33,243 bases of DNA from a virus: the IMG/VR virus record IMGVR_UViG_3300045988_135825, positions 1-33,243 of that record. One strand, written 5' to 3'. The notes under the pieces are model-generated. The model saw only the letters and a list, made by a program, of their open reading frames with translations. It had not been told where the DNA came from and did no database searches. The number at the start of each line of letters is the position of its first letter. Within the stretch, counting starts at the first letter, position 1. Shown piece by piece: positions 1-33,243 of the stretch. The translations under genes were made by a program, and so were the position numbers.

Positions 1-55
1 AAATTAAGAAACCTGATTATTCAGGATATGTAAAGAAAGAAGATTATACTAAACT
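1..55. repeat. Terminal overlap: identical to nt 33189-33243 (closure of a circular contig, or terminal redundancy)
   Basis: The first and last 55 nt both read aaattaagaaacctgattattcaggatatgtaaagaaagaagattatactaaact. Confidence 0.95.
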
Positions 56-434
56 TCAAGGAGATTATACAAGCCTAGAAACTAATTACAATAACACTGT
101 TAAAACTTTAAGTGAAACAAATGACAAGATGACTAGATTAAGTCTAGAAAACAAACTTGTTAAAAAAGGTTTTAAAGAAGAAAACTTTGATGAAGTAGTT
201 AAATTAAGGAATAGTCTTTATGCTGATGAAAAAGATGATGATAAAGCAATTGAGGGAATAGTAACTAGATTTAAAAATACATATTTCCCAGAAACAGAAA
301 AGAAAAATAACATACCATTTACACAAGCACCTAATGAGGGTGGAGTAAATGGAAATAATGCTAATACTGGTAAAGATATAAAGATAACAAGAGGTACTAG
401 CATTAAAGATTTAATGATACCTGTAACTAAGTAA
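1..434 (+). CDS. Scaffolding protein, C-terminal part (continuation of 33074..33188)
   Basis: Open in frame 3 from nt 3 to the stop at 432-434. The product is charged and coiled-coil-like and lies directly upstream of the major capsid gene. The ATG at 129 in the ORF track is internal. Confidence 0.7.
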   Translation, partial: IKKPDYSGYVKKEDYTKLQGDYTSLETNYNNTVKTLSETNDKMTRLSLENKLVKKGFKEENFDEVVKLRNSLYADEKDDDKAIEGIVTRFKNTYFPETEKKNNIPFTQAPNEGGVNGNNANTGKDIKITRGTSIKDLMIPVTK

Positions 435-474
435 TTTTAGTTAAATATAGAGGAAAGAAAAGGAGGAAGAAATT

Positions 475-1632
475 ATGAATTTTACAGGAGTTAATTTAGA
501 CCTACAAGGTTTAATGAAAAGAACTTATGCTAATTTACTTTACAATTCTCAATTCTATAAAATGCTAAACAGAAGATGGTTTGAAGTTGGAAGAACTGGC
601 ACTCCAATTATTGAGATTGTTAAGCAATTAGACACTGCATTAAATGTAAGAAATAATGTAGAAATCGCACAAGGAGGAATTACAAACGAACTTGCTACTT
701 ACAATTCAGTAAAAGTTGACTTAACTGAATTACCTATGGACTATTCATTTAGAGTAAGCCCTATAGTAATGGGTAGTGGTATCGAAAGAGCAATCGAGGG
801 ACAAATCGAATTAAAAGAGGCTCAAATCTCTAGACAAATCGATGTATATGGCTTTAATAAATTAAATGCTGATATTACAGGACCTCAAGATGGTTCAATG
901 GCTTATACTGATGGACAAATCACTAAATGGGCTCCAGCAAGTGGAACTGAAACTATTGAATTAATTAATGATTTAAAATCTAAATTATTTGATAGAAATA
1001 TCTATGATGGATACCTATTAGGACTAAGTTCAACTGCTTATGCTTACTTTATCTCAAGTTTAACATCAATTCTTAAATTTGAAACAAGAGCAGGTGTTGA
1101 GGGTGTTGATATGGGACAAGTTGCTGATGCTTATGGTGTTAGTGTATTCCAAATCAATAGTAATGTAATTGAAAAAGATAAAGAAGGTAAAGATACAAAT
1201 GTAGTTGGATACTTTGCTAATGAAGTTGGTACAGTTGGTGATACATTCTGGAGTTCATTTGCTCAATACAATGGTAACTTCCCTGGCTACCCAGGATACT
1301 TCGTTGTTGAGGGAAATGTAATGTTCGGAGCAAAAGTAGTAAGACCAGAAGCAGTTATTAAATTAGTTGAAAGTATTCCAACAGTTGATGCTGGTTCATT
1401 CGATGCTGGTAAAGTTGGAACAACATATAACCAAACAACAGAATTCGCTGGTACAGAAGTTGTTAAATATGAGGCTGGTGGACTTCCTGCTGGATTATCA
1501 TTAAATGCAACATCTGGAGCAGTTACTGGAACACCAACAGAAGCAGGTTCATTCAATGTTTCAATCTATGGTGTAGATAAATATGGTAACTATTCTAATG
1601 CATTCAATGGAACAATTGTAATTGTTGAATAG
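475..1632 (+). CDS. Major capsid protein with a C-terminal Ig-like (He_PIG-type) domain
   Basis: Strong RBS aggaggaag before the ATG. 385 aa, placed between scaffold and head-tail connector genes. The C-terminus carries GGLPAGLSLNATSGAVTGTPTEAGSFNVSIYGVDKYGN, which matches the 'putative Ig domain' motif LPxGLxxxxxxGxxxGTPTxxG. Confidence 0.8.
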   Translation: MNFTGVNLDLQGLMKRTYANLLYNSQFYKMLNRRWFEVGRTGTPIIEIVKQLDTALNVRNNVEIAQGGITNELATYNSVKVDLTELPMDYSFRVSPIVMGSGIERAIEGQIELKEAQISRQIDVYGFNKLNADITGPQDGSMAYTDGQITKWAPASGTETIELINDLKSKLFDRNIYDGYLLGLSSTAYAYFISSLTSILKFETRAGVEGVDMGQVADAYGVSVFQINSNVIEKDKEGKDTNVVGYFANEVGTVGDTFWSSFAQYNGNFPGYPGYFVVEGNVMFGAKVVRPEAVIKLVESIPTVDAGSFDAGKVGTTYNQTTEFAGTEVVKYEAGGLPAGLSLNATSGAVTGTPTEAGSFNVSIYGVDKYGNYSNAFNGTIVIVE

Positions 1633-1651
1633 TTAGAAAGGAAGTGAGAAA

Positions 1652-2032
1652 ATGCAATTTTTCACAATAGCAGAGTTCGAGGATAAATACCCAGACTATG
1701 CAAATGCTGATATTTCAACTTGGCAGATAGAAGCAGTAAGTGAGATGATTTTCTCACAAATAGGCTTAAGATATAGGGACACAAGTTGGGATACGACAAG
1801 TGTCCCTTTGCCTATTAAAAATGCTTCTATGGAACAAATGAGGTTCGTATTAGAACATGACATTCCATTTGTTGATTTTGATAAAGATATAAAGGCAGGA
1901 ACAATGAGTTCTCCTTTAAAGACTGATTATTCTACTTTAGCACTAAGAATACTTGCTAATAATGGATATCTATATAGAGGTACACCAATGTCTAGTAATA
2001 TGGCTCTTACTATACCATTTGGAGGCGAATAA
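1652..2032 (+). CDS. Head-tail connector / DNA-packaging (gp6/gp15-like) protein
   Basis: RBS aaaggaagtgag. 126 aa. First gene after the capsid gene, the usual connector position. Confidence 0.55.
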   Translation: MQFFTIAEFEDKYPDYANADISTWQIEAVSEMIFSQIGLRYRDTSWDTTSVPLPIKNASMEQMRFVLEHDIPFVDFDKDIKAGTMSSPLKTDYSTLALRILANNGYLYRGTPMSSNMALTIPFGGE

Positions 2033-2033
2033 A

Positions 2034-2354
2034 ATGTTTCTAGTAAATGGTATGAAAGCAACATTAAGGCAGTTTAATCGTGATGAAAATGATGAAATAT
2101 TTGATGATACTAATTATAAAGAAATCACAATTAAATGTTGTCCTTATGATTGCGAAAGTGCTATAAAGTTCGGTATTTATACAGTTCCTGAGGCTACTGG
2201 TTATTATCAAGTTGGAAGACTTGTTGATGTAAAAGCAGGAGACCAAATAATTTATCTAGGCAAATATGCCGATAATAAAGTTCATACAGTGTTAAAAGTT
2301 CAAGATAGTTGGATATTTAATAGAGTAGAAAATAAAATTATAGCGGTAAAATAA
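2034..2354 (+). CDS. Head closure / head-tail adaptor protein (start corrected to the internal ATG)
   Basis: ATG at 2034 follows ggaggcgaataaa. The longer track ORF from 1953 overlaps the previous gene and has no RBS. Confidence 0.55.
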   Translation: MFLVNGMKATLRQFNRDENDEIFDDTNYKEITIKCCPYDCESAIKFGIYTVPEATGYYQVGRLVDVKAGDQIIYLGKYADNKVHTVLKVQDSWIFNRVENKIIAVK

Positions 2355-2713
2355 TGGCTGATGTTAAAGTAAATTGGTATCCAGGAAAGAAAAAGGAAGT
2401 ATTAGAGGCTTCTGATAAGATAATGTATGCAATAGCAAGACAAACACTTGATAGAACATTTCCTCATATTCCTATGTCAAGAAGAAAAGGAGTAGTCCAC
2501 ATGAGACAAACTTCAATGGCAGCAGGAGTTAGAGGAAGTGATGGAAATTATTATATAGGTTCTTATACCAACTATGCTAAATATGTATGGGTTATGCCTA
2601 GAACTACTAATTGGAGTGAACCTGGTACTTTTGGCAAATGGTATCAAGAAATATATACTAAGCAAAAAAAGAGTATTGTTGGAATTGCTATAAAGGAGAA
2701 TGAATTGAAATGA
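2354..2713 (+). CDS. Neck / tail-joining structural protein
   Basis: taATG coupling with the previous gene. 119 aa. Position within the head-tail joining block. Confidence 0.5.
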   Translation: MADVKVNWYPGKKKEVLEASDKIMYAIARQTLDRTFPHIPMSRRKGVVHMRQTSMAAGVRGSDGNYYIGSYTNYAKYVWVMPRTTNWSEPGTFGKWYQEIYTKQKKSIVGIAIKENELK

Positions 2714-3159
2714 CAAGAGAATTATTAGAAAAGAAACAATTAATCTTAATTAAATATCTTCAAAATATAATTGGTGGTTATACCACTGACAAATGGAAAA
2801 TAAAAGCCGAATATTCAACAAATGATAATGATAGTAGGGTAATAGTCGTACAAGAACAAAGCGGACAAAAACAAGTATTTTATGGCGATATATTGCCTAT
2901 GTATAATTATTATATGATTGATATATATGGACTTACAATTAAAGAGTGCAAAGAGTTATCTTTATTAATAGGTAATCTAATAGGAAAATCGGAAAGAATA
3001 GAAGTTGAAAATAAAGAAACTAATAAATTGGAAAGGTGGCAAATTATATTTACTCAATATGTTAATCCACAAGCAATAGAGTATATGGATATCAGAAGAG
3101 TTGGTTATAATTCTACCTTACAATGTATCATAAGTAAGATTTATGAAAAAGATTTATAG
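2710..3159 (+). CDS. Tail completion / tail terminator-like protein
   Basis: ATGA overlap with the previous gene. 149 aa. Lies immediately upstream of the major tail gene. Confidence 0.5.
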   Translation: MTRELLEKKQLILIKYLQNIIGGYTTDKWKIKAEYSTNDNDSRVIVVQEQSGQKQVFYGDILPMYNYYMIDIYGLTIKECKELSLLIGNLIGKSERIEVENKETNKLERWQIIFTQYVNPQAIEYMDIRRVGYNSTLQCIISKIYEKDL

Positions 3160-3174
3160 AAAGGAAGTGTAAAT

Positions 3175-3648
3175 ATGAATGAATTTTATGTAAATAATAG
3201 AGAAGTCATTAAAAACTTAGGTTTAAATACTGGTACTAGTGCAGTCCCTACGTTTACTCCTATGTGTACAACTACCGAGGTTGGTTTGACAACTGATTTC
3301 GAGCAACAAGACTGGTATGTGTTCTGCGATGCTATTCAAAGAAGTATAATCACTGGTGCTGCCATCTCTATTGATACTACTGTTAAAATTGATATGAATA
3401 ATGCTTCTATAGTTAAGATACTTGGCGATATTCATACATTAATCAAAGAAGGTACTGTTGCTCAATTCAATAACCAATTAGTACAATTTGAATTATTAAC
3501 AGGAGTTCAAGAAGGAGCATTGACTTATACTAAGTATAAAGTACCTTGTACTTTGAACTTTAGTGATTTAGGTGGTGCTGCTGAAGATAGTGGCGAGTTT
3601 GCATTGACTATTGTTGTAACTGGTAAAGGAGAAGTTGTAACAGGATAA
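3175..3648 (+). CDS. Major tail (tube) protein
   Basis: RBS aaaggaagtg. 157 aa. Last gene before the tape measure, followed by a terminator-like hairpin, as is common for highly expressed tube genes. Confidence 0.6.
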   Translation: MNEFYVNNREVIKNLGLNTGTSAVPTFTPMCTTTEVGLTTDFEQQDWYVFCDAIQRSIITGAAISIDTTVKIDMNNASIVKILGDIHTLIKEGTVAQFNNQLVQFELLTGVQEGALTYTKYKVPCTLNFSDLGGAAEDSGEFALTIVVTGKGEVVTG

Positions 3649-3654
3649 ACCTAT

Positions 3655-3687
3655 AAGGGTTGGGTTAAAAGCCCAGCCCTTTATTTT
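3655..3687 (+). terminator. Intrinsic terminator/attenuator hairpin after the major tail gene
   Basis: aagggttggg (3655-3664) pairs with cccagccctt (3672-3681), 10 bp with one G-U. It is followed by tattttat. Confidence 0.6.
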
Positions 3688-3707
3688 ATAATAAGGAGGT
3701 GGAATAA

Positions 3708-6700
3708 ATGAATGGAGGAGAAGTCATCTTCAAGTTTAAAGGAGATGATAAAGACCTAGAAAAAAAGACTAATGGTGTCACTGGTAAATTGAAAGCGAGT
3801 ACTGTTGCTCTTGGTAATTTAATGTCTAGTGCTATTGAAAAAGTCGGCAGTTCTTTGTTAGGACTTGGCAAAGATGCCTTGCAAGGTGTTGCTGATTTAG
3901 AGCAGAATATAGGTGGTGTTGAGACACTTTTCAAAGATAGTGCTGATACAGTTATAGAGAACTCTAAAAAAGCCTATACAACAGCGGGAATAGATGCTAA
4001 TAAGTATATGGAGCAAATAACTTCATTTAGTGCTAGTTTATTACAAAGCCTAGGTGGGGATACTGCAGAGGCAGCCAAAGTTGGTGATATGGCTATTCAA
4101 GACATGGCGGATTAACAAAATAGTCCGAGTTAAACGCATTGAACCTTATCAAGGGTGTGTAGTGTAAACTATGCTAACGGTGAAACTCCTAACGTGAAGT
4201 CGAGGACAATACCGTGGTAAGCCTATGAAAATAGGAAACTGTAACGACTATTCCGAAAGGAAGTAGAATTATTATTGATACATAATTCGAAGTGGTGCGA
4301 TTGACATAAATACAAATTTATGGTATAATACTACCAAATAAAAGGAGGATTATACTGATGTGGAAAGATATAAAAGGATATGAAGAAATATATAAAATTT
4401 CTGATACAGGAGAAATATGGAGCAAGGATAGATGGTGCATTGATAAAAAAGGACGCAAAAGATTTAGAAAAGGAATGAAATTAAGCCCAGATATTGCTTC
4501 AAATGGTTATTATAGAATTACTTTTTCTAAAAATGGCAAAAAGGTACAAAAATATTTGCATAGATTAATTGCTGAATATTTTATACCTAATCCAAATAAT
4601 TATCCACAAGTAAATCATAAAGATGGAAATAAGTTAAATTGTAATATAAAAAACCTTGAGTGGGTTACAAATCAAGATAATATAATTCATGCTTATAAAA
4701 ATGGACTTATTAATCATGTTAGAGGAATTAATCATCCGAATTATGGTTTATGTGGTGGGAAAAGCAAAAAAGCAAAAAAAATAATCGCTAAGAATATAAT
4801 AACTGGCGAAACAAAAATTTATGATGCAATGATAGAAGCAAAAAAAGATGGATTTTTACCATCAGAGATTTCTAGATGTTGCAATCATGGAGGAACACAT
4901 CATGGATACGTATTTGAGTTAATATGAGATAGTCTACTCCCCTAATAAATATCGGGAAACCGAGGGTATTAAAGGAATTCAAACAAGTTTGGTACCGCAA
5001 TAGAAAACATTCAAAATGCTTATCAAGGCTTCGCTAAGCAGAATTATACGATAAAATCAATGTCTACTTAATTAGTGATAATTAAGTAAGTGTATGTGAA
5101 CTTTATCAAGGGTGTGAGATTAAAATATAAGTAGGAAATGACTTGTTGAGATAATCTTGCTAACTGGGGAAACCTAAGTCAAAAGATATGGTTATCCAGT
5201 GCCAAGCCTAGAAATAGGAAGGTCAAACGACTATGAGTTCGTTACTCAGTACAATATCTATTGATACGATATTGGAAGTGCATACTATCTCAAATGAGAT
5301 AAAGATATAGTCTAATCCCACTTTTAAATAAGTGTTAAAGTACTAGGAAACTAGGGGTATAAATGGTTAGATAATTTAAAACTCGGTTGAAAGACCATAG
5401 CCGAGTATAAACCGAAGAATTAAACTGGAAGCCCATCAAAAAAAGGGTAATCAGAACCGAAGGCTATACAAAGTATAGTCAGGGGCAACGCATAGAGGTT
5501 GAAAAGATATAATACCTCCACGAGGCTTCGGAACTTTATATAAGTTAAAAGATATGCTGAACTATATAGATGATAAATATATAGAAATAAAAGATAAAAA
5601 ACTTTTATGTTAACAAGTGTATGGTGGCACAAAAACAGAAATGGAAAGATTACTTGCTGATGCTGAAAAGATATCAGGAGTACATTATGACATTTCTAAT
5701 TTAAATGATGTATTTAATGCTATTCATGTAATTCAAGAAGAATTAGATGTAACAGGAACGACAGCAAAAGAAGCCTCTACTACTATAAGTGGTTCAATAA
5801 ATAGTGCTAAGTCAGCATTTAGTAATTTCCTAAGTGGTGCAGGTGGAATTGAAGAAGTAATAAGTACCTTTACTACTGCTGGAACAAACATATCAAATGC
5901 GATAGTAAAAATGGCACCTCAAATAATAACTGGTTTAACTACTTTATTGAATAATCTAGTACCTTTAATTGGCCCTTTACTTCAAGCGATATTACCAGCA
6001 TTGATACAAGGAACTTCAACATTAATAATGGGACTAGTTCAAGCATTGCCTGGTATTATTCAAATATTAATGGGTATGTTGCCTACTATAATTCAAGAAT
6101 TAGCAAATATGCTACCAGTTATACTTACTTCATTAATTCAAGGGTTAGTTATGATTATTCAAGAGTTGGCTAATCAATTACCTACATTGATACCAGTTAT
6201 AATAGATGCTATTCTTAGCACTATACCTATCTTAATTGATAATTTGCCTTTATTTATAGAGGCTGGTTTCAAATTACTAGGTGGCTTAATTGCTGGTATA
6301 TTAAATGCTCTTCCAATATTGCTAGCCAGAGCAGGAGAAATCGTTGTTGATTTAGTTGAATATTTCAAAGGAATGCCTAAGATGATGTGGGATTGTGGTA
6401 AAAATTTAATACAAGGCCTTTGGAATGGTATTAAGTCTGCTAAAGATTGGGTACTTGACAAGATAGCAGGTATAGGTAATTCAATAATGAAAAAAATCAA
6501 AGGAATATTTGGAGTACATAGCCCATCAACAGAGTTTGCATGGGTTGGTAAGATGAATATGCTAGGTTTAGAAAAAGGTATGGAAGATATGAAAGGACAA
6601 GTTAATTCAACAGTCGGAGGAATGTTTGATGATATGTTTAGTTTATCGCCTAGCCTATATGGAAGTTCAGGTACTAATTTAAGTCCACAAGTTAATGTAG

Positions 6701-6810
6701 TAGTAAATAACAATATGGAGCAAGACCCATTAGGACAAATGGTTAATAATATTAAGACATTTAGCGGTGGCTCTAAAAATGACTATAATTATGGAATGGG
6801 AGGAGCATAG
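3708..6810 (+). CDS. Tail tape measure protein, split gene: join(3708..4112, 4976..5052, 5366..5387, 5620..6810), 564 aa after splicing
   Basis: Exon 1 ends ...GDMAIQDMAD. A 77-nt exon encodes NSNKFGTAIENIQNAYQGFAKQNYT plus 'at'. A 22-nt exon supplies 'g' plus LDNLKLG. Exon 4 starts YGGTKTEMERLL. Joined, these rebuild the motif DMADN..K.G....IQNAYQGFAKQNYTMLDNLKLGYGGTKTEM, conserved in tape measures of Firmicute phages. Exon lengths 405+77+22+1188 = 1692 nt, divisible by 3. The C-terminal two thirds are hydrophobic and helical, typical of tape measures. Confidence 0.85.
4301..4329 (+). promoter_or_regulatory. Sigma-A-type promoter inside intron 1, driving the homing endonuclease ORF
   Basis: TTGACA (4301-4306), 17-nt spacer, TGgTATAAT (4321-4329). 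RBS aaaggagg lies before the ATG at 4358. Confidence 0.6.
4358..4927 (+). CDS. Intron-encoded HNH homing endonuclease (NUMOD4-like N-terminus plus HNH_3-type core)
   Basis: N-terminus MWKDIKGYEEIYKISDTGEIWS. Core motif VNHKDGNKLNCNIKNLEWVTNQDN. The ORF sits in a peripheral loop of intron 1 and its stop codon overlaps the 3' intron core (tgagatagtc). Confidence 0.85.
   Translation: MWKDIKGYEEIYKISDTGEIWSKDRWCIDKKGRKRFRKGMKLSPDIASNGYYRITFSKNGKKVQKYLHRLIAEYFIPNPNNYPQVNHKDGNKLNCNIKNLEWVTNQDNIIHAYKNGLINHVRGINHPNYGLCGGKSKKAKKIIAKNIITGETKIYDAMIEAKKDGFLPSEISRCCNHGGTHHGYVFELI
5053..5365 (+). mobile_element. Group I intron 2 in the tape measure gene (313 nt, ORF-less paralogue of intron 1)
   Basis: Shares blocks with intron 1: ttatcaagggtgtg, gctaac.g.gaaac.cctaa, aagccta.aaataggaa, aacgactat, atagtcta.tccc, ggaaac...ggggtat.aaa.g. 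Begins after U5052 and ends in G5365. Only these splice points give an in-frame ATG codon (at+g) and the TMLDNLKLG motif. Confidence 0.75.
5388..5619 (+). mobile_element. Group I-like intron 3 in the tape measure gene (232 nt, unrelated in sequence to introns 1 and 2)
   Basis: The 5' splice site follows U5387. A 6-bp P1 pairs ctcggU (5382-5387) with Gccgag (5400-5405), with a U-G wobble. The intron ends in G5619. Splicing joins ...LKLG to YGGTKTEM in frame. The class assignment was not verified by folding. Confidence 0.65.
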
Positions 6811-6812
6811 AT

Positions 6813-8303
6813 ATGAGTAGATTAAAAATGTTAATAAACAATGAAGAAGTAGTTTGCAATAAAGATTTTACTATAACAGAGGAAATGCTTGCTACTTCCT
6901 CTACCATTCTCAACAATTGTTATCCAAAAAGTTGGGAAAATGATAAAAATTATGTTTCAAGGTTTTATTATCCTAAAGACTACTCGAAATGTAAGATATA
7001 TAAAGATGATGTACTTGTTTTTTGTGGAGTAGTAAAAAATTCGGGGAACATAAGTCTTAACCCTAGATATCCTCACTTTTGCAGTTTGCAAATATTAGAT
7101 TTCAAAACTTTACTTAGTGAGGGCGAGACTTTAGATTATGTAATTAATAATAAGACAGTAATAGAGGCAATAGAAGATGCCATTGATGTAATTAGTTCTT
7201 ATGGCTTTGTGAAAGGAAATATAAATATATTTAATGGTGATGACATAATAGGTGCTTATTCTACTCAAAACATGACTGCTTATGATGTCTTTCAGTATTT
7301 TGCTGATATAACAGGTTCTAAGTGGTTTACTAGATTAGTGGATGAAGATACTGTGGCTATTGATTTCTATGACCCTACATTAATGCCTAAGGCTAATAAT
7401 TTAGAATATACAGAAGAATTCTTTGAAAATAATAACATTGTAGATATAAGTTTCAATTATGGAAGTAGAGATTATAGAAATAAACAAATAATGCAATCTG
7501 ATGAAGTATATGCTAGTATAGATTATATTGATAATTTAGTATCTAATGGCTATGATAGTACTTTCTTATTAACTTCAAATGTTGGTATAGTAAAAAGCAT
7601 AAAAGTAAATAATGTAGAAGTATCATTTACAACTAATGTAAATAAAGAAATAGGAATAGATGCTGATTTCTATTATACACCAGGCAAAAATCAAATAGAA
7701 AGTGCAGAAACTTATTCTGCAGGGACAAGAATTGAAATTGTCTACACACCTATTGTAAAAGGTAGACAAATAGTGTATAATAATGATGAAGTAGACAGAG
7801 TAGCAAATTCAATGGGTAGAAAAGGTATTATAGCAAGATATGAAAACAGAAATGATGCCATTTCTAGTTATGAATTAGATATGATAGGTCAGTCTTACAT
7901 TAAATATAAAGGCAGCACCGAAGTTAATTTAGTAGTCAAGACAAAAGATAAAGACCTTTATAATGTGGGAGAAGTTGTATATTTCGATGCTCCTATAGAT
8001 GACCTTAAGCAAGATTACATGGTAAAGAAAAAAGACATCAAGATAATTAATACAACTACACAAGAGTGCATTTTTTACACATACGAGTTATCAAGTTCAT
8101 TTAATAGTGAAAGAGCAATAAACTGGTTTGATAATCAGAGAAGAAAAGCAAAAGGAAATATAGGAGAAGGAGAGGCTATAACAAGAAATGTAGACATAGA
8201 AAATTCAGCAAATATAATATTTAATAATTATTCAAAAATTGAATTAAATGTAACAGGAGACAATACACTAAATTGTGGCTTAAATGCTCCATTTGTAAGT
8301 TAG
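6813..8303 (+). CDS. Tail tip / distal tail (baseplate hub-type) structural protein
   Basis: First gene after the tape measure, with an ATG 3 nt after its stop. 496 aa. Confidence 0.6.
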   Translation: MSRLKMLINNEEVVCNKDFTITEEMLATSSTILNNCYPKSWENDKNYVSRFYYPKDYSKCKIYKDDVLVFCGVVKNSGNISLNPRYPHFCSLQILDFKTLLSEGETLDYVINNKTVIEAIEDAIDVISSYGFVKGNINIFNGDDIIGAYSTQNMTAYDVFQYFADITGSKWFTRLVDEDTVAIDFYDPTLMPKANNLEYTEEFFENNNIVDISFNYGSRDYRNKQIMQSDEVYASIDYIDNLVSNGYDSTFLLTSNVGIVKSIKVNNVEVSFTTNVNKEIGIDADFYYTPGKNQIESAETYSAGTRIEIVYTPIVKGRQIVYNNDEVDRVANSMGRKGIIARYENRNDAISSYELDMIGQSYIKYKGSTEVNLVVKTKDKDLYNVGEVVYFDAPIDDLKQDYMVKKKDIKIINTTTQECIFYTYELSSSFNSERAINWFDNQRRKAKGNIGEGEAITRNVDIENSANIIFNNYSKIELNVTGDNTLNCGLNAPFVS

Positions 8304-8314
8304 GAGGTAAAAAT

Positions 8315-10246
8315 ATGACCGAAGAATATAAAAAAAATATATTGGCTTATTTGGTAGGGAAACTACCTCAAGAAGAAAAAAATGATATTCCTCAATTCAA
8401 TAATTGGGAAGTAAATAATAGTGGAATAAGAAGCCAAATAGCAAATAAATTAAATATTGCTTCTAATTTTGTAATTATATATAATAATTTATCTTCTAAT
8501 TCAAATGATTTAATATTAATATATGGAAGATATATAGAAAATAACAATAATAATCCTTTTGTTGCCATTATGTCAAAAGATGGTGTCATATTACAAGTTA
8601 TAACAACATTTTCTTCTGGTTCTAAATTGTTTAATATTGTTGGTATGCAAATAGATGATGATAATTCGATATATGCTGTAAGTAGTGAGATGGCTGATAA
8701 TGAAAAGACAGTTAGAGTTTTGTTTTTAAATAATATATTTCTAAGTAATTCAGAAAAAGGTACATTTTATATTAAAATTAAAAAAAGTTATATATGTCCC
8801 TTAGACTTTTGGATGGGGACAGTAAATCCTAGCAAATATAGAATAACAAAAGGAGATACTGACACTTATTTCCTTATTGGCTATCCGCAAACACAAGGCA
8901 GTAGCACATCAACAGCAATAGTAAAATTCAAAATTAATGCAGGAAGTGAAAATGAATGGAATAATTATACAATTGAAAATTCCGGTTTAGATAGAATTTT
9001 ATTTTCAACAAGCATCAATAAGATAAATGATAACATTTATTTTAGAATTTATGGTTTTGATTGGTTAAATGACAACCCACAATATTCAGAGTATTTATTA
9101 TCACCAGATGGCAATTTAATTTTGGAAAAGAGTATCAAATTTGAGTTTGAATTAAGTTATAGTGGATGTCAAGTTATGTATTGTTCAGAAAATAATAAAT
9201 TTCTCGCTATTCAAGATTTGACAAATAAAAGGAGTTTATTATATAATTTAAAAAATAGTGAATTAATTCAAATGGACACTTTAAATTGGTATGAATATAA
9301 TGAAGAAATAATAAGAGGTGGGTTTTACTTGCAAGAAATAAATAATACATTATTTGTCACAAAATTTTTAGTTAATAATACTACAGCACCTACTACTGAT
9401 ATATATCTAGGAATAATCAAAAATGGTATAGTTTATTATGAAAGTGAAACACAAAAAAGAAACAATAGTATGTTAAGTATAAGGGAAGATACTATAAGAA
9501 CAAGTACATATATATTAAATAATTTCAATTTGTTTGATATCTTTATAGAAAGTAATTATAATAATGATGTTGAAAATACCTATCTTAATAAAACATATCT
9601 TGTTTATAATAACAACAATTATAATGGTATTCCTTACACAAACATAAATAGCATGGTACCTAATCAAGGAATATTATATAGTAGTCAAAATAAACCGATA
9701 TTTGCACGAAATTTATATAATAAGGTAATTATTGGTAGAAGCACAAATAGTTCTATACAAGTACCAAATACATATTTAAATGATATTGTAATTAGTAAAC
9801 AAAATTTGCTTAGTGAAACTAATTCAACATTAATAAGTAATAATCAGACAATAACGAAGAATATATATGAAACATTAAATATAAACTTCATAAATACTTT
9901 GCAAATAAGAAATGATAATGATGAGACTAATCCTATGCTTAACCCAGTAGGGGCAAGTAGATTGAATAATAGTATATCAGAAACAACTGATTATGATAAT
10001 ACTAAAGCATTAAAAATAAAAATCAATTATGCAGATAACACTAATTATATACTTCAATTAAAAGAAAATCAAATTGATAAGATTAGTGATACAAGTTATA
10101 TGTATGACTTTGATATATACGCATCAAAGAGTATAACAAATATTCAAATAATAAGCAACGATGAAATTACAATTTATCAGACTATAACTTCAACATTTGA
10201 AGTAGGTAAATTATATAGCATTACTCAAATGGTGGAAATAGTATAA
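8315..10246 (+). CDS. Large Asn-rich tail tip protein, candidate receptor-binding or tail-associated protein (start corrected)
   Basis: ATG at 8315 follows taggaggtaaaaat. 643 aa. Second gene after the tape measure. I recognise no domain. Confidence 0.55.
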   Translation: MTEEYKKNILAYLVGKLPQEEKNDIPQFNNWEVNNSGIRSQIANKLNIASNFVIIYNNLSSNSNDLILIYGRYIENNNNNPFVAIMSKDGVILQVITTFSSGSKLFNIVGMQIDDDNSIYAVSSEMADNEKTVRVLFLNNIFLSNSEKGTFYIKIKKSYICPLDFWMGTVNPSKYRITKGDTDTYFLIGYPQTQGSSTSTAIVKFKINAGSENEWNNYTIENSGLDRILFSTSINKINDNIYFRIYGFDWLNDNPQYSEYLLSPDGNLILEKSIKFEFELSYSGCQVMYCSENNKFLAIQDLTNKRSLLYNLKNSELIQMDTLNWYEYNEEIIRGGFYLQEINNTLFVTKFLVNNTTAPTTDIYLGIIKNGIVYYESETQKRNNSMLSIREDTIRTSTYILNNFNLFDIFIESNYNNDVENTYLNKTYLVYNNNNYNGIPYTNINSMVPNQGILYSSQNKPIFARNLYNKVIIGRSTNSSIQVPNTYLNDIVISKQNLLSETNSTLISNNQTITKNIYETLNINFINTLQIRNDNDETNPMLNPVGASRLNNSISETTDYDNTKALKIKINYADNTNYILQLKENQIDKISDTSYMYDFDIYASKSITNIQIISNDEITIYQTITSTFEVGKLYSITQMVEIV

Positions 10247-33073: not shown

Positions 33074-33243
33074 ATGAATTTTGATATTACTAAATATCTA
33101 AAAAACAAAGATATTACTATAAGTAATGATGACCTAGATGTTTCTGCAATGGAGAAAGATTTCACGCAAGGATATACAAAAAATAGTGAAATTAAGAAAC
33201 CTGATTATTCAGGATATGTAAAGAAAGAAGATTATACTAAACT
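33074..33243 (+). CDS. Scaffolding protein, N-terminal part (gene continues across the contig junction into 1..434)
   Basis: ATG at 33074 follows aaaaaggag. The frame stays open to the window end and is in phase with frame 3 at the window start through the 55-nt overlap. The joined gene is 549 nt (182 aa). Confidence 0.7.
   Translation, partial: MNFDITKYLKNKDITISNDDLDVSAMEKDFTQGYTKNSEIKKPDYSGYVKKEDYTK
33189..33243. repeat. Second copy of the 55-nt terminal overlap
   Basis: Identical to nt 1-55. Confidence 0.95.

What the first reader, a model, noticed from the sequence alone, without database searches (positions are those of the whole stretch)
4113..5365. Introns 1 and 2 are paralogues: one carries an HNH homing endonuclease with its own promoter, the other is an ORF-less copy 77 nt downstream
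The two introns share ordered sequence blocks: ttatcaagggtgtg, gctaac.g.gaaac.cctaa, aagccta.aaataggaa, aacgactat, attgatac, gaagtg, atagtcta.tccc and ggaaac..ggggtat.aaa.g.

In intron 2 the region between gaagtg and atagtcta is a short hairpin (tatctc-aaat-gagata). In intron 1 the same position holds a 570-nt HNH ORF. That ORF is preceded by TTGACA-17-TGgTATAAT and a strong RBS, and its stop codon runs into the 3' core.

This looks like a snapshot of intron duplication or ectopic homing into a neighbouring site, followed or preceded by gain or loss of the endonuclease.
Basis: seen in the sequence. Interest (0 to 1): 0.65.

Follow-up and report, generated by a model that had tools for sequence, protein, structure and literature searches.

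The report
Two related introns in tail gene
Two self-splicing group I introns sit 77 bases apart in a phage tail tape-measure gene, one with its own homing-endonuclease gene and one that has lost it; they are distant cousins from one mobile intron family, not a fresh duplication, and this kind of arrangement is already known.

Summary
Window 4113-4975 (863 nt) and 5053-5365 (313 nt) are group I introns in the tape-measure (TMP) gene, 77 nt apart. A third intron (5388-5619) follows a 22-nt exon. Intron-less alleles in sibling phage contigs fix all three junctions.

Intron 1 carries an I-HmuI-like NUMOD4/HNH gene in loop L8. The gene has a 12/12 sigma-70 promoter with an extended -10 and an AAGGAGG ribosome-binding site. 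Intron 2 has only a 6-bp hairpin at that position.

The shared blocks are collinear and far above chance (z = 11). The "snapshot of duplication" reading fails:
- The two cores are 66% identical, which is the family background.
- Same-site introns from other phages average 77% (site 1) and 82% (site 2).
- The two introns were never sisters in 300 bootstraps.
- The endonucleases also cluster by site: 62-66% within site 1, about 34% between sites.

Intron 2 belongs to a separate site-2 lineage with its own HNH gene. That gene is intact in one sibling genome, frameshifted in another, partly deleted in two, and gone here. This is the ordinary homing-endonuclease gain, decay and loss cycle. Related introns at different TMP sites were described in Bacillus cereus-group prophages in 2008. 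Verdict: a new member of a known kind, of moderate to low interest.

The parts
3708..4112 (+). Tape-measure gene exon 1; ends ...GCG GAT (D135), with U at -1
   Evidence: Spliced ORF. One-piece tblastn to intron-less TMPs. Sibling contigs join 4112 directly to 4976.
4113..4975 (+). Intron 1 (site 1), a group I intron of 863 nt that ends in G
   Evidence: Precise absence in 9 sibling contigs. Core helices supported by covariation. The ORF-less site-1 orthologue in L013 scores 32.4 bits, E 1e-6, against RF00028.
4123..4127 (+). Internal guide sequence GUCCG of intron 1. It pairs with exon CGGAU (4108-4112) to form P1, with a U.G pair at the splice site
   Evidence: P1 is 5-7 bp in all 11 site-1 sequences listed (10 loci plus the window) and covaries (GGCGGAU/GUCCGCU, GUCGGAU/GUCCGAU). 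Intron-less alleles carry GCAGAC instead.
4141..4159 (+). Peripheral hairpin GAACCUUAUCAAGGGUGUG (labelled P2 here), a signature of this intron subfamily
   Evidence: Exact motif found in 24 IMG/VR contigs and 13 genome contigs. Helix 1.
4246..4294 (+). P7 5' strand GACUAU, then P7.1 (UCC GAAA GGA), P7.2 (AAUUA...UAAUU) and GAAGUG (P3 3' strand)
   Evidence: all 5 P7.2 pairs show compensatory changes; P7 is invariant. The P7+P7.1 motif is exact in 90 IMG/VR contigs.
4300..4313 (+). P8 5' strand AUUGACAUAAAUAC. It pairs with 4910-4923 and contains the -35 box
   Evidence: Read from the sequence: 14 positions with 1 mismatch. P8 stems flank the ORF in every ORF-bearing relative, and all 7 tested P8 pairs covary.
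4301..4329 (+). Sigma-70-type promoter TTGACA-17-TATAAT with TGn extended -10, driving the endonuclease gene
   Evidence: the only 12/12 site in 3500-6000. TGNTATAAT is kept in 5 of the 6 site-1 orthologues shown with an intact ORF (L021, L096, L024, L015, L022; L129 has CGATATAAT), although their proteins are only 62-66% identical to the window's.
4342..4348 (+). Ribosome-binding site AAGGAGG, 9 nt before the ATG
   Evidence: Read from the sequence.
4358..4927 (+). Homing-endonuclease gene, 189 aa, NUMOD4 + HNH_3, I-HmuI-like
   Evidence: Pfam. PDB 1U3E (I-HmuI) at E 7e-15. PHROG 59 HNH endonuclease at 2.6e-44. 99.5% identical copy in L021; 62-66% site-1 orthologues.
4910..4934 (+). P8 3' strand GUAUUUGAGUUAAU (last ORF codons), J8/7 AUGAG (contains the stop codon TGA), P7 3' strand AUAGUC
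   Evidence: Read from the sequence. P7 helix paired in 99% of cells.
4976..5052 (+). Exon 2, 77 nt (NSNKFGTAIENIQNAYQGFAKQNYT plus AT)
5053..5365 (+). Intron 2 (site 2), an ORF-less group I intron of 313 nt that ends in G
   Evidence: RF00028 at 43.5 bits, E 2.9e-9, below the gathering score of 50. Absent at exactly this site in L021, L013-L015 and L022. Same-site introns occur in Lactococcus phage 38502 and Streptococcus phages Javan271 and Str-PAP-1.
5286..5301 (+). P8 of intron 2: UAUCUC-AAAU-GAGAUA. This is where the site-2 HNH gene sits in sibling genomes
   Evidence: L018 has an approx. 530-nt insert here with its own promoter, RBS and a 160-aa HNH ORF. L023 has the same insert with a frameshift (79 aa). 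L010 and L028 keep 72-74-nt remnants.
5366..5387 (+). Exon 3, 22 nt (G + LDNLKLG)
5388..5619 (+). Intron 3 (site 3), 232 nt, ORF-less, not similar in sequence to introns 1 or 2. Listed as context, not part of the finding. The boundary may shift by 1 nt (T/T ambiguity); the ending in G favours 5388-5619
   Evidence: Precise absence in L009, L018, L023 and L028. P1 is ACUCGGU/GCCGAGU. No Rfam hit. z = 0.3 and 2.5 against introns 1 and 2.
5620..6810 (+). Exon 4 of the tape-measure gene
   Evidence: PHROG 58 tail length tape measure protein at 3.4e-36.

Best explanation
Window 4113-5365 holds two self-splicing group I introns of the phage IA type. They have the extra P7.1/P7.2 helices and resemble Twort/SPO1-type introns. 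They interrupt the conserved N-terminal part of a siphophage tape-measure gene at two sites 77 nt apart.

Intron 1. It is a complete mobile unit. Its ribozyme uses the guide sequence GUCCG to pair with the exon end CGGAU. Loop L8 carries an I-HmuI-like HNH endonuclease gene with its own promoter and ribosome-binding site. By analogy with I-HmuI (inferred, not shown), the enzyme nicks or cuts intron-less tape-measure alleles during mixed infection. Repair then copies the intron, together with a few flanking synonymous exon bases, into the cut allele.

Intron 2. It is a member of a separate lineage specific for site 2. That lineage normally carries a different HNH gene in the same loop. In this genome the gene has been deleted cleanly, leaving a 6-bp P8 hairpin and a ribozyme that still has to splice because the tape-measure protein is essential.

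Relationship. The two introns share ancestry within one widespread intron subfamily. They share the GAACCUUAUCAAGGGUGUG hairpin, the P7.2 loop UAUUGAUAC, and a GUC-type guide at +10/+11. They diverged long before this phage existed. They did not arise from each other in this genome.

Population picture. The sibling genomes show every stage of the homing-endonuclease cycle at each site: empty site, intron with an intact gene, intron with a frameshifted or partly deleted gene, and ORF-less intron.

What is shown and what is inferred. Shown: exon and intron boundaries, RNA structure with covariation, endonuclease family, presence/absence and decay series, and non-sister relationship. Inferred: actual self-splicing, endonuclease activity and target, and promoter use.
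For: Boundaries and restored reading frame.

Group I structure (16 site-1 and site-2 introns). 96.9% of 704 cells are paired, against 38-46% when partners are slid. 21 of 44 pairs carry compensatory changes, spread over P4, P6, P7.2, P8 and P9. 0/500 shuffles reach the observed covariation score. P1 has a U.G pair and covaries. Both introns end in G.

Rfam RF00028: 43.5 bits, E 3e-9 for intron 2; 32.4 bits, E 1e-6 for the ORF-less site-1 orthologue.

Endonuclease: Pfam NUMOD4 + HNH_3; I-HmuI, PDB 1U3E, E 7e-15. Promoter: conserved in most site-1 orthologues.

Non-sister relationship.
- Core identity between the window's introns 1 and 2 is 66%.
- Means are 77% within site 1, 82% within site 2, 68% between sites, and 64-65% to other-gene members.
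- Within-genome site-1/site-2 pairs in five genomes are 63.5-68%, no higher than between genomes.
- nhmmer rank is about 65th. Bootstraps give 87%, 100% and 0% for the three key groupings.

Endonucleases cluster by site.

Decay series. Intron 2. Intron 1: a 444-nt deletion in L010 and a 501-nt deletion between aaatttatg repeats in L026.

Horizontal spread. Intron 2 is 93-96% identical inside tape-measure genes that are only about 70% identical (L012, L126).

Exon variants track intron presence.
Against:
- Neither intron reaches Rfam's gathering score.
- P3 could be supported only as a 4-bp UGCU/AGYG helix with almost no variation.
- P1 of site-2 introns is only GAU/GUC plus one pair unless a bulged C is allowed.
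- The tree rests on about 160 MAFFT-aligned columns, and deep nodes have 11-27% support. How the site-1 and site-2 lineages relate to each other and to other-gene introns is therefore open.
- Most relatives come from one metagenome and from contigs chosen by motifs taken from intron 1. The sample is biased.
Confidence: 0.85

Rival explanations
1. One reading: intron 2 is a recent paralogue of intron 1 made in this genome (or its immediate ancestors) by duplication or ectopic homing into a site 77 nt downstream. The endonuclease gene was then lost from the copy, or gained by the original.
For: Collinear shared blocks well above chance (z = 11). Same ORF insertion loop. Physical proximity. Similar guide sequences, and target sites that differ by one base (CGGAU| versus CGAU|).
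Against: - 66% core identity equals the family background.
- Each intron has much closer same-site relatives in distant phages.
- 0 of 300 bootstraps place them as sisters.
- Intron 2 has its own site-2 HNH lineage, only about 34% identical to intron 1's. That gene is still present in sibling genomes on a backbone 98-99% identical to the window's intron 2.
- Intron 2 is present in 13 of 14 close genomes, while intron 1 is in only 4. Intron 2 therefore cannot derive from intron 1 within this clade.
Confidence: 0.03
2. An old site switch. The site-1 and site-2 lineages are sister lineages created once, long ago, when an intron of one site inserted into the other. The route would be reverse splicing or off-target endonuclease cleavage at a similar sequence. 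Each lineage then adapted its guide and its endonuclease. This is the case described for IVS1 and IVS2 of Bacillus cereus-group prophage tape-measure genes.
For: - 11 of the 12 site-2 sequences in the table have GUC at +10 to +16, and 10 of those keep GUCCG, which matches the site-1 exon CGGAU perfectly but pairs with the site-2 exon ACGAU only with a bulge; the window's own clade (W, L012, L018) has GUCU.
- Shared P2 hairpin and P7.2 loop.
- Between-site identity (68%) is slightly above identity to other-gene members (64-65%).
- In the NJ tree most site-1 and site-2 introns fall together, apart from several other-gene introns.
- Precedent in PMC2504315.
Against: - Deep nodes have 11-27% bootstrap support.
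- One other-gene intron (L030) nests inside the site-2 group, and L096 site 1 and L031 site 2 fall outside their site groups.
- The P2 hairpin also occurs in introns of other genes (L017, L029, L030).
- The 3' domains are mosaic between the lineages, so recombination could mimic shared ancestry.
- Guide similarity could be convergence on similar exons.
Confidence: 0.35
3. The similarity reflects only membership of a common pool of mobile IA-type phage introns. The two sites were invaded independently from that pool, with module exchange between lineages, and there is no direct site-1 to site-2 descent.
For: - The window's intron 1 is as similar, or more similar, to other-gene introns (L029 72.7%, L030 69.7%) as to the window's intron 2 (66%).
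- The P7+P7.1 motif of intron 1 occurs in 90 viral contigs of many origins.
- The 3' 60 nt of intron 2 are 93-97% identical to introns of Staphylococcus Twort-like phages.
- 3' domains are mosaic.
- Different intron types occupy site 3.
Against: The GUCCG guide shared by site-1 introns and most site-2 introns (not the window's own intron 2) at +10 to +16, and the slightly higher between-site identity. Most carriers of the exact P2 motif are tape-measure introns.
Confidence: 0.45
4. These are not introns. The tape-measure gene is genuinely split into several genes by inserted free-standing endonuclease cassettes, which is how GenBank records of related phages annotate it.
For: GenBank annotations of Lactococcus phages 38502, C41431 and 28201 and Streptococcus phages Javan271 and Str-PAP-1 list two tape-measure CDSs plus an endonuclease.
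Against: - The 77-nt and 22-nt pieces cannot be genes.
- Removing the three segments restores a single frame that is collinear with uninterrupted homologues.
- The group I structure is supported by covariation, U at -1 and a terminal G.
- ORF-less versions exist.
Confidence: 0.02

Closest known systems
Group I introns TMP-IVS1, IVS2 and IVS3 of Bacillus cereus-group prophages (Tourasse & Kolsto 2008, NAR 36:4529; PMC2504315)
   Same: Three intron sites in one phage tape-measure gene. Two of the introns (IVS1, IVS2) are homologous IA2 introns at different sites that differ mainly in P1 and peripheral domains. The third site holds a different intron class, and different introns share it. Most copies lack a complete endonuclease gene. 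Phages act as the vector.
   Different: A different tape-measure family: no Bacillus record was listed among the tblastn hits. IVS1 and IVS2 are 80% identical overall and 90-92% in the core, against 66% here. Here one intron keeps an intact HNH gene, and sibling genomes show the whole decay series. The exons between introns are only 77 and 22 nt.
Staphylococcus phage Twort orf142 with three group I introns, and the Twort ribozyme (Landthaler & Shub 1999 PNAS; Golden et al. 2005, PDB 1Y0Q). Cited from my own knowledge; mentioned in PMC10136302 and PMC11878797.
   Same: Several IA2-type introns in a single phage gene, separated by short exons. P7.1/P7.2 architecture. The 3' 60 nt of intron 2 are 93-97% identical to introns of Twort-like staphylococcal phages.
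   Different: Different host gene and phage type (a roughly 33-kb siphophage-like genome). Exon skipping, reported for Twort, was not tested here.
Bacillus phage SPO1/SP82 DNA-polymerase intron encoding I-HmuI/I-HmuII (PDB 1U3E)
   Same: An HNH endonuclease of the same family (E 7e-15, aligned over residues 2-120), encoded inside a phage group I intron. From my own knowledge, I-HmuI nicks one strand of intron-less and intron-containing DNA.
   Different: Sequence identity was not computed; the aligned region covers query residues 2-120 and excludes the C-terminal DNA-binding part. Different target gene. Nicking versus double-strand cutting was not tested here.
Lysin-gene group I intron of Streptococcus thermophilus phages and its deletion derivatives (Foley et al. 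2000, J Virol 74:611; cited in PMC3952083)
   Same: One intron backbone circulating in a phage population with an intact endonuclease gene and several internal deletion derivatives.
   Different: A single site in a lysin gene, whereas here three adjacent sites each show independent presence/absence.
Same-site introns in GenBank phages: Lactococcus phage 38502, Streptococcus phages Javan271 and Str-PAP-1 (site 2); C41431, 28201, MissG1 and Javan271 (site 3)
   Same: Identical insertion points in the homologous tape-measure motif ...NYT|M... and ...KLG|YGG.... The site-2 introns are 76-80% identical to intron 2 in the core (L001 80.4%, L007 78.5%, L004 76.6%) and carry an HNH gene in L8.
   Different: None of these records has an intron at site 1 (D|N). 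Str-PAP-1 has one six codons downstream. They are not annotated as introns in the records.

Membership tests
Group I self-splicing intron (Rfam RF00028) | Score at or above the curated gathering threshold of the covariance model | tested here: not met
   No hit at gathering. Intron 2 scores 43.5 bits against a threshold of 50 (E 2.9e-9). Intron 1 is split by its ORF and gives 14 bits. Its ORF-less orthologue in L013 gives 32.4 bits (E 1e-6). Site-3 introns of L013 and MissG1 pass at 72 and 69 bits.
Group I self-splicing intron | P1 formed by the 5' exon end and an internal guide sequence, with a U.G pair at the 5' splice site | tested here: met
   Intron 1: CGGAU/GUCCG plus 2 intron pairs. P1 is 5-7 bp with covariation in all site-1 introns. 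Intron 2: U at -1 paired to G, but only GAU/GUC plus 1 contiguous pair. Intron-less alleles lack the pairing bases.
Group I self-splicing intron | [quoted passage not shown] | tested here: met
   G4975 and G5365. All 23 site-1 and site-2 relatives end in G.
Group I self-splicing intron | Conserved core helices P3-P9 in the canonical order, including the P3/P7 pseudoknot, supported by compensatory changes | tested here: met
   96.9% of cells paired and 21 of 44 pairs with changes on both sides (P4, P6, P7.2, P8, P9). P7 (GACUAU/AUAGUC) and P3 (UGCU/AGYG) are nearly invariant, so they are compatible but not proven. Further extension of P3 is unresolved.
Group I self-splicing intron | Autocatalytic splicing with guanosine as cofactor | not testable with these tools
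Indirect support: the interrupted gene is essential, and the intron-containing allele is widespread in complete phage contigs.
Subgroup IA (IA2-like) phage introns | Extra helices P7.1 and P7.2 between the P7 5' strand and the P3 3' strand (the definition is taken from my own knowledge of Michel & Westhof's classes) | tested here: met
   P7.1 is UCC-GAAA-GGA in intron 1 and GAGU-UCGUU-ACUC in intron 2. All 5 P7.2 pairs covary. No formal subgroup classifier was run, so IA1 versus IA2 is not settled.
HNH homing endonuclease, I-HmuI-like (NUMOD4 + HNH_3) | N-terminal NUMOD4 motif and HNH_3 catalytic domain above Pfam thresholds, and homology to I-HmuI | tested here: met
   NUMOD4 at 47 bits (cut-off 23.4) and HNH_3 at 44.7 bits (cut-off 24.8). 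1U3E at E 7e-15, with the H-x-DGNK-N...NL-WVT region aligned.
HNH homing endonuclease, I-HmuI-like | Site-specific nicking or cleavage of the intron-less allele, and promotion of homing | not testable with these tools
   Indirect only. Presence/absence polymorphism at the exact site, flanking synonymous exon differences consistent with co-conversion, and site-specific endonuclease lineages.
Recent intragenomic paralogues (duplicate pair) | The two copies are each other's closest relatives | tested here: not met
   66% identity, rank about 65th, 0 of 300 bootstraps.

The most novel reading that the evidence does not exclude
The site-2 lineage arose from a site-1-type intron by insertion into a neighbouring sequence that differs by one base (CGGAU| to CGAU|). 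It still carries the unadapted guide GUCCG as a molecular fossil. In addition, tightly packed introns (exons of 77 and 22 nt) may lie within one another's co-conversion tracts. A single active endonuclease such as intron 1's could then mobilise ORF-less neighbours in trans, which would explain how endonuclease-less introns 2 and 3 persist and spread. If so, this phage population would be a natural system for measuring site switching and hitch-hiking of group I introns.
Probability: 0.25. Interest if true: 0.5.

Novelty: new member of a known kind. Interest (0 to 1): 0.3.

Why it matters
Practical value. The tape-measure genes of this phage group, and of several GenBank Lactococcus and Streptococcus phages, are single genes interrupted by up to three self-splicing introns. 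They are not split genes plus stray endonucleases, so annotation pipelines should join them.

Biological value. The set of sibling contigs gives an unusually complete natural series. It shows an empty site, an intron with an intact endonuclease gene, a frameshifted gene, partial deletions and a clean ORF-less intron at sites only 77 and 22 nt apart. Flanking synonymous exon markers are also present. This could be used to study the homing-endonuclease life cycle, co-conversion tract length and possible exon skipping.

Limits. It does not reveal a new mechanism. Related introns at different sites of a tape-measure gene, and multiple introns in one phage gene, have been described before.

Tried and rejected
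- Rfam at gathering threshold on the whole window: no hit. Sub-threshold searches on short stretches were needed.
- Megablast of the flanking structural genes against GenBank phages: no match. PHROGs gave nothing for seven neighbouring ORFs. The phage itself is undescribed and its host could not be settled. The only leads are MAG labels: 'Bacilli bacterium' for a contig 93% identical to the window and 'Tissierellia' for a 72-82% relative.
- P3: I tried to define it by scanning all registers between the region before UGCUAAC and the region after GAAGYG. Only a 4-bp invariant helix is consistent across the family, and longer registers work for some members only. I left the P3 extension unresolved.
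- P1 of site-2 introns: an alternative pairing of exon UACG/CACG with UGUG/CGUG just upstream of the P2 hairpin is compatible in all members. It leaves the splice-site U unpaired, so I did not adopt it.
- A loose global pairwise aligner gave inflated identities of 80-87% for every pair. I replaced it with a multiple alignment trimmed to well-occupied columns.
- MAFFT misaligned the site-1 exon with the site-2 guide region in alignment A3. P1 was therefore analysed separately and left out of the covariation count.
- I looked for the Bacillus cereus tape-measure intron sites in the plasmid collection, to test whether they are the same sites. There was no Bacillus hit, so it is a different tape-measure family.
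- Intron 3 as a third paralogue: rejected, with no significant similarity.


Full report
**What is in the window.**
The window is a low-GC (about 23-35%) phage genome. Its first 55 nt recur at 33188, so it is probably a complete circular assembly of about 33.2 kb. A MAG contig 93% identical to it joins the window's end to its start.

An ORF starting at 3708 encodes the N-terminus of a tail tape-measure protein. It stops at 4115 and resumes at 5617-6810, which matches PHROG 58 tail length tape measure protein.

Removing three segments gives a single 564-aa frame. The segments are 4113-4975, 5053-5365 and 5388-5619. The junction region then reads DMAD|NSNKFGTAIENIQNAYQGFAKQNYT|MLDNLKLG|YGGTKTEMERLL. 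It aligns without a break to uninterrupted tape-measure proteins of many phages. One example is Acutalibacter phage Fontainebleau at 68% identity over residues 36-243.

**Independent proof of the junctions.**
I scanned IMG/VR for a 19-nt hairpin motif of intron 1. I also scanned a genome collection. Together they returned a set of sibling contigs 89-97% identical to the window around the tape-measure gene.

These contigs differ by clean presence or absence of each segment:

| Segment | Present in | Notes |
|---|---|---|
| Intron 1 | 4 of 14 close genomes (window, L010, L021, L026) | absent from the rest |
| Intron 2 | 13 of 14 | absent only in L021 |
| Window-type intron 3 | 7 of 14 | an unrelated 794-nt HNH-bearing intron occupies the same site in L020 and L021 |

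The empty sites join exactly at 4112/4976, 5052/5366 and 5387/5620.

Intron-plus and intron-minus alleles also differ at flanking synonymous positions. At site 1 the plus alleles read gcGgaT|aaT and the minus alleles gcAgaC|aaC. This fits the P1 pairing requirement and co-conversion during homing.

**They are group I introns.**
Rfam's model does not reach its gathering score for either element. Intron 2 scores 43.5 bits (E 3e-9). An ORF-less site-1 orthologue scores 32.4 bits (E 1e-6). I therefore tested the structure directly.

I took sixteen site-1 and site-2 introns from different phages. I trimmed their L8 loops and aligned them as A3. The helices I named were P2, P3, P4, P6, P7, P7.2, P8 and P9. 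Results:
- 96.9% of 704 cells pair, against 38-46% when partners are slid by 1-3 columns.
- 21 of 44 pairs carry changes on both sides.
- All pairs of P7.2, P8 and the P9 hairpin covary.
- No shuffle out of 500 reaches the observed covariation score.

P7 (GACUAU/AUAGUC) is invariant.

P1 of intron 1 is exon CGGAU paired with GUCCG at 4123-4127, with U.G at the splice site. In other site-1 introns P1 is 5-7 bp and covaries. Both introns end in G.

The extra P7.1/P7.2 helices mark the IA type that is common in phages of Gram-positive bacteria. Two points remain unsettled. P3 is supported only as a 4-bp invariant helix. P1 of site-2 introns is short unless a bulged C is allowed.

**The ORF and its signals.**
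The 189-aa product has NUMOD4 and HNH_3 domains. It is homologous to I-HmuI, the intron-encoded HNH nicking endonuclease of Bacillus phage SPO1 (PDB 1U3E, E 7e-15).

It lies in loop L8. The P8 5' strand AUUGACAUAAAUAC (4300-4313) pairs with GUAUUUGAGUUAAU (4910-4923), which is made of the last codons. The stop codon TGA lies in J8/7, just before the P7 3' strand.

TTGACA-17-TATAAT with a TG extension (4301-4329) is the only perfect promoter match in the region. Its -35 box lies inside the P8 strand. AAGGAGG precedes the ATG by 9 nt. The extended -10 is kept in 5 of the 6 site-1 orthologues shown with an intact ORF; L129 has CGATATAAT instead. Their proteins are only 62-66% identical to the window's. 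That conservation argues for use. Promoter activity itself is inferred.

**Are introns 1 and 2 paralogues?**
They are homologous. The shared blocks are collinear, and a local alignment scores z = 11 above dinucleotide shuffles. Intron 3 shows no similarity to either (z = 0.3 and 2.5).

The blocks are family-wide, however:
- The P7+P7.1 motif of intron 1 occurs exactly in 90 viral contigs.
- The last 60 nt of intron 2 are 93-97% identical to introns of Twort-like staphylococcal phages.

Over 150 well-aligned core columns the two window introns are 66% identical. For comparison:

| Comparison | Core identity |
|---|---|
| Window intron 1 to site-1 introns of other phages | 73-85% |
| Window intron 2 to site-2 introns of Lactococcus and Streptococcus phages | 75-82% |
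| Mean within site 1 | 77% |
| Mean within site 2 | 82% |
| Mean between sites | 68% |
| Mean to same-subfamily introns in other genes | 64-65% |

Five genomes carry both introns. Their within-genome pairs are 63.5-68% identical, no closer than between-genome pairs.

With intron 1's 5' core as an nhmmer query, the window's intron 2 ranks about 65th. In 300 bootstraps the window's intron 1 groups with a site-1 intron from a Tissierellia MAG 87% of the time. Intron 2 groups with the site-2 intron of L012 100% of the time. The two window introns never group as sisters.

The endonucleases tell the same story:
- Site-1 proteins are 62-66% identical to the window's.
- Site-2 proteins are 41-60% identical to each other.
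- Identity between the site classes is about 30-37%.

**What intron 2's missing ORF really is.**
Siblings carry a backbone 98-99% identical to the window's intron 2. On that backbone the P8 loop holds different contents:
- L018: a promoter, an RBS and an intact 160-aa HNH gene.
- L023: the same gene with a frameshift in an A-run, giving 79 aa.
- L010 and L028: 72-74-nt remnants of both ends.
- The window and eight others: nothing, leaving UAUCUC-AAAU-GAGAUA.

Intron 1 shows the same kind of decay. L010 has a 444-nt internal deletion. L026 has a 501-nt deletion between aaatttatg repeats. A divergent phage, L013, has a clean 293-nt ORF-less version.

Intron 2 is nearly fixed in this clade, and only one of 13 copies keeps an intact gene. 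Intron 1 is rarer, and half of its copies are intact. This is what the homing-endonuclease cycle predicts: invasion, fixation, decay, loss.

Intron 2 also occurs at 93-96% identity inside tape-measure genes that are only about 70% identical (L012, L126). It therefore moves horizontally.

**Could there still be an old site switch?**
Possibly. Ten of the twelve site-2 sequences keep the guide GUCCG. It matches the site-1 exon CGGAU perfectly but fits the site-2 exon ACGAU only with a bulge. The window's own intron 2 clade has GUCU instead. Both lineages share the P2 hairpin and the P7.2 loop.

The counter-evidence is substantial. Deep nodes have 11-27% support. One other-gene intron nests among site-2 introns. 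The P2 hairpin also occurs in introns of other genes. The 3' domains are mosaic across the two lineages. I rate an old site switch at about 0.35 and independent recruitment from a common pool at about 0.45.

**Comparison with what is known.**
Tourasse and Kolsto (2008, PMC2504315) described group I introns at three sites of the tape-measure gene of Bacillus cereus-group prophages. Two related IA2 introns at different sites were 80% identical and differed mainly in P1. A different class occupied the third site. Most copies lacked endonuclease genes. That is the same phenomenon in a different tape-measure family.

Other precedents, the first and third from my own knowledge:
- Phage Twort's orf142 has three introns in one gene.
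- The S. thermophilus lysin intron circulates with deletion derivatives.
- SPO1's intron encodes the homologous I-HmuI.

What is new here is modest. Site 1 (D|N) of this tape-measure family was not seen in the GenBank phages I examined. The exons are exceptionally short. The population series is unusually complete.

**Verdict.**
- The "snapshot of duplication" is not supported.
- This is a new member of a known kind, with interest about 0.3.

Noticed in passing
window 5366-5619: A third intron (5388-5619, 232 nt, ORF-less) follows a 22-nt exon. It is precisely present or absent among siblings, has a 7-bp P1 (ACUCGGU/GCCGAGU) and ends in G. It gets no Rfam group I hit even at E<=10 and has no sequence similarity to introns 1 or 2. 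By eye it has P3 CCGAAG/CUUCGG, P7 GCAUA/UAUGC and J8/7 AAGAUAUGC, so it is probably a compact, divergent group I intron.
   Followed up: partly
window 1-55 and 33188-33243: The first 55 nt recur at the end of the window, so the window looks like a complete circular assembly of about 33.2 kb. MAG contig L123 ('Bacilli bacterium MAG291', 93% identical) joins the window's end to its start.
   Followed up: partly
window 4104-4112/4976-4981, 5045-5052, 5380-5387; sibling loci L008-L028: Synonymous exon bases next to each site track intron presence. At site 1, intron-plus alleles read gcGgaT|aaT and intron-minus alleles gcAgaC|aaC. At site 3, plus alleles read ctCggt and minus alleles ctTggt or ttAggt. 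This fits the P1 pairing requirement, co-conversion tracts or endonuclease-resistant alleles.
   Followed up: partly
L020 627-1420 and L021 6123-6916 (coordinates on the TMP-sense strand, as oriented): A different 794-nt intron with its own 163-aa HNH gene occupies site 3 in two sibling genomes. It shares the ACGACTATTCCGAAAGGAAGTAG motif with intron 1. At least three unrelated intron types use site 3 across phages.
   Followed up: partly
L004 (Javan271) site-2 intron; L096 and L031 site-2 introns: These site-2 introns carry a promoter-like TTGAC...TATAAT inside an insertion in the P6 loop, while the endonuclease ORF sits in P8. The promoter and the gene appear to occupy different loops.
   Followed up: no
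3' domains listed (window 4924-4975; L096, L124, L121, L013 and others): The 3' domain comes in a short form (AAATATCGGGAAACCGAGGGT) and a long form with an extra hairpin. Each form is found in both site-1 and site-2 introns. This is incongruent with the 5' core and suggests module exchange between lineages.
   Followed up: no
L001, L002, L004, L006, L007 (GenBank KX160204, KX160219, MK448723, KX456206, KP208803): Published phage records annotate the interrupted tape-measure gene as two separate genes plus an endonuclease. Only MissG1 (OL774877) marks an ncRNA. Javan271 has two introns separated by the same 22-nt exon. Str-PAP-1 has an extra intron six codons downstream of site 1.
   Followed up: partly
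L012 10495-10810 (+) and L126 about 2760-3668 (locus coordinates, - strand): Intron 2 is 93-96% identical to the window's copy inside tape-measure genes that are only about 70% identical. This is evidence of recent horizontal transfer of the intron between distinct phages.
   Followed up: partly
window 475-3648 and 6813-10246: Seven neighbouring structural ORFs have no PHROG match at 1e-5. The ORF at 475-1632 has a Pfam He_PIG Ig-like domain. Megablast of 1-3700 finds nothing among GenBank phages. The phage is otherwise undescribed.
   Followed up: no
window 5058, 5066, 5102: Relative to nearly all siblings, the window's intron 2 has private substitutions in the P1/P2 region: aaaatCaatgtctActtaa and gaacTttatc. 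Position 5058 (aaaatC) is shared with L011 and so is not private. The G-to-A change appears to turn a G.U pair into an A-U pair at the base of a hairpin, and the C-to-U change turns C-G into U.G in P2.
   Followed up: no
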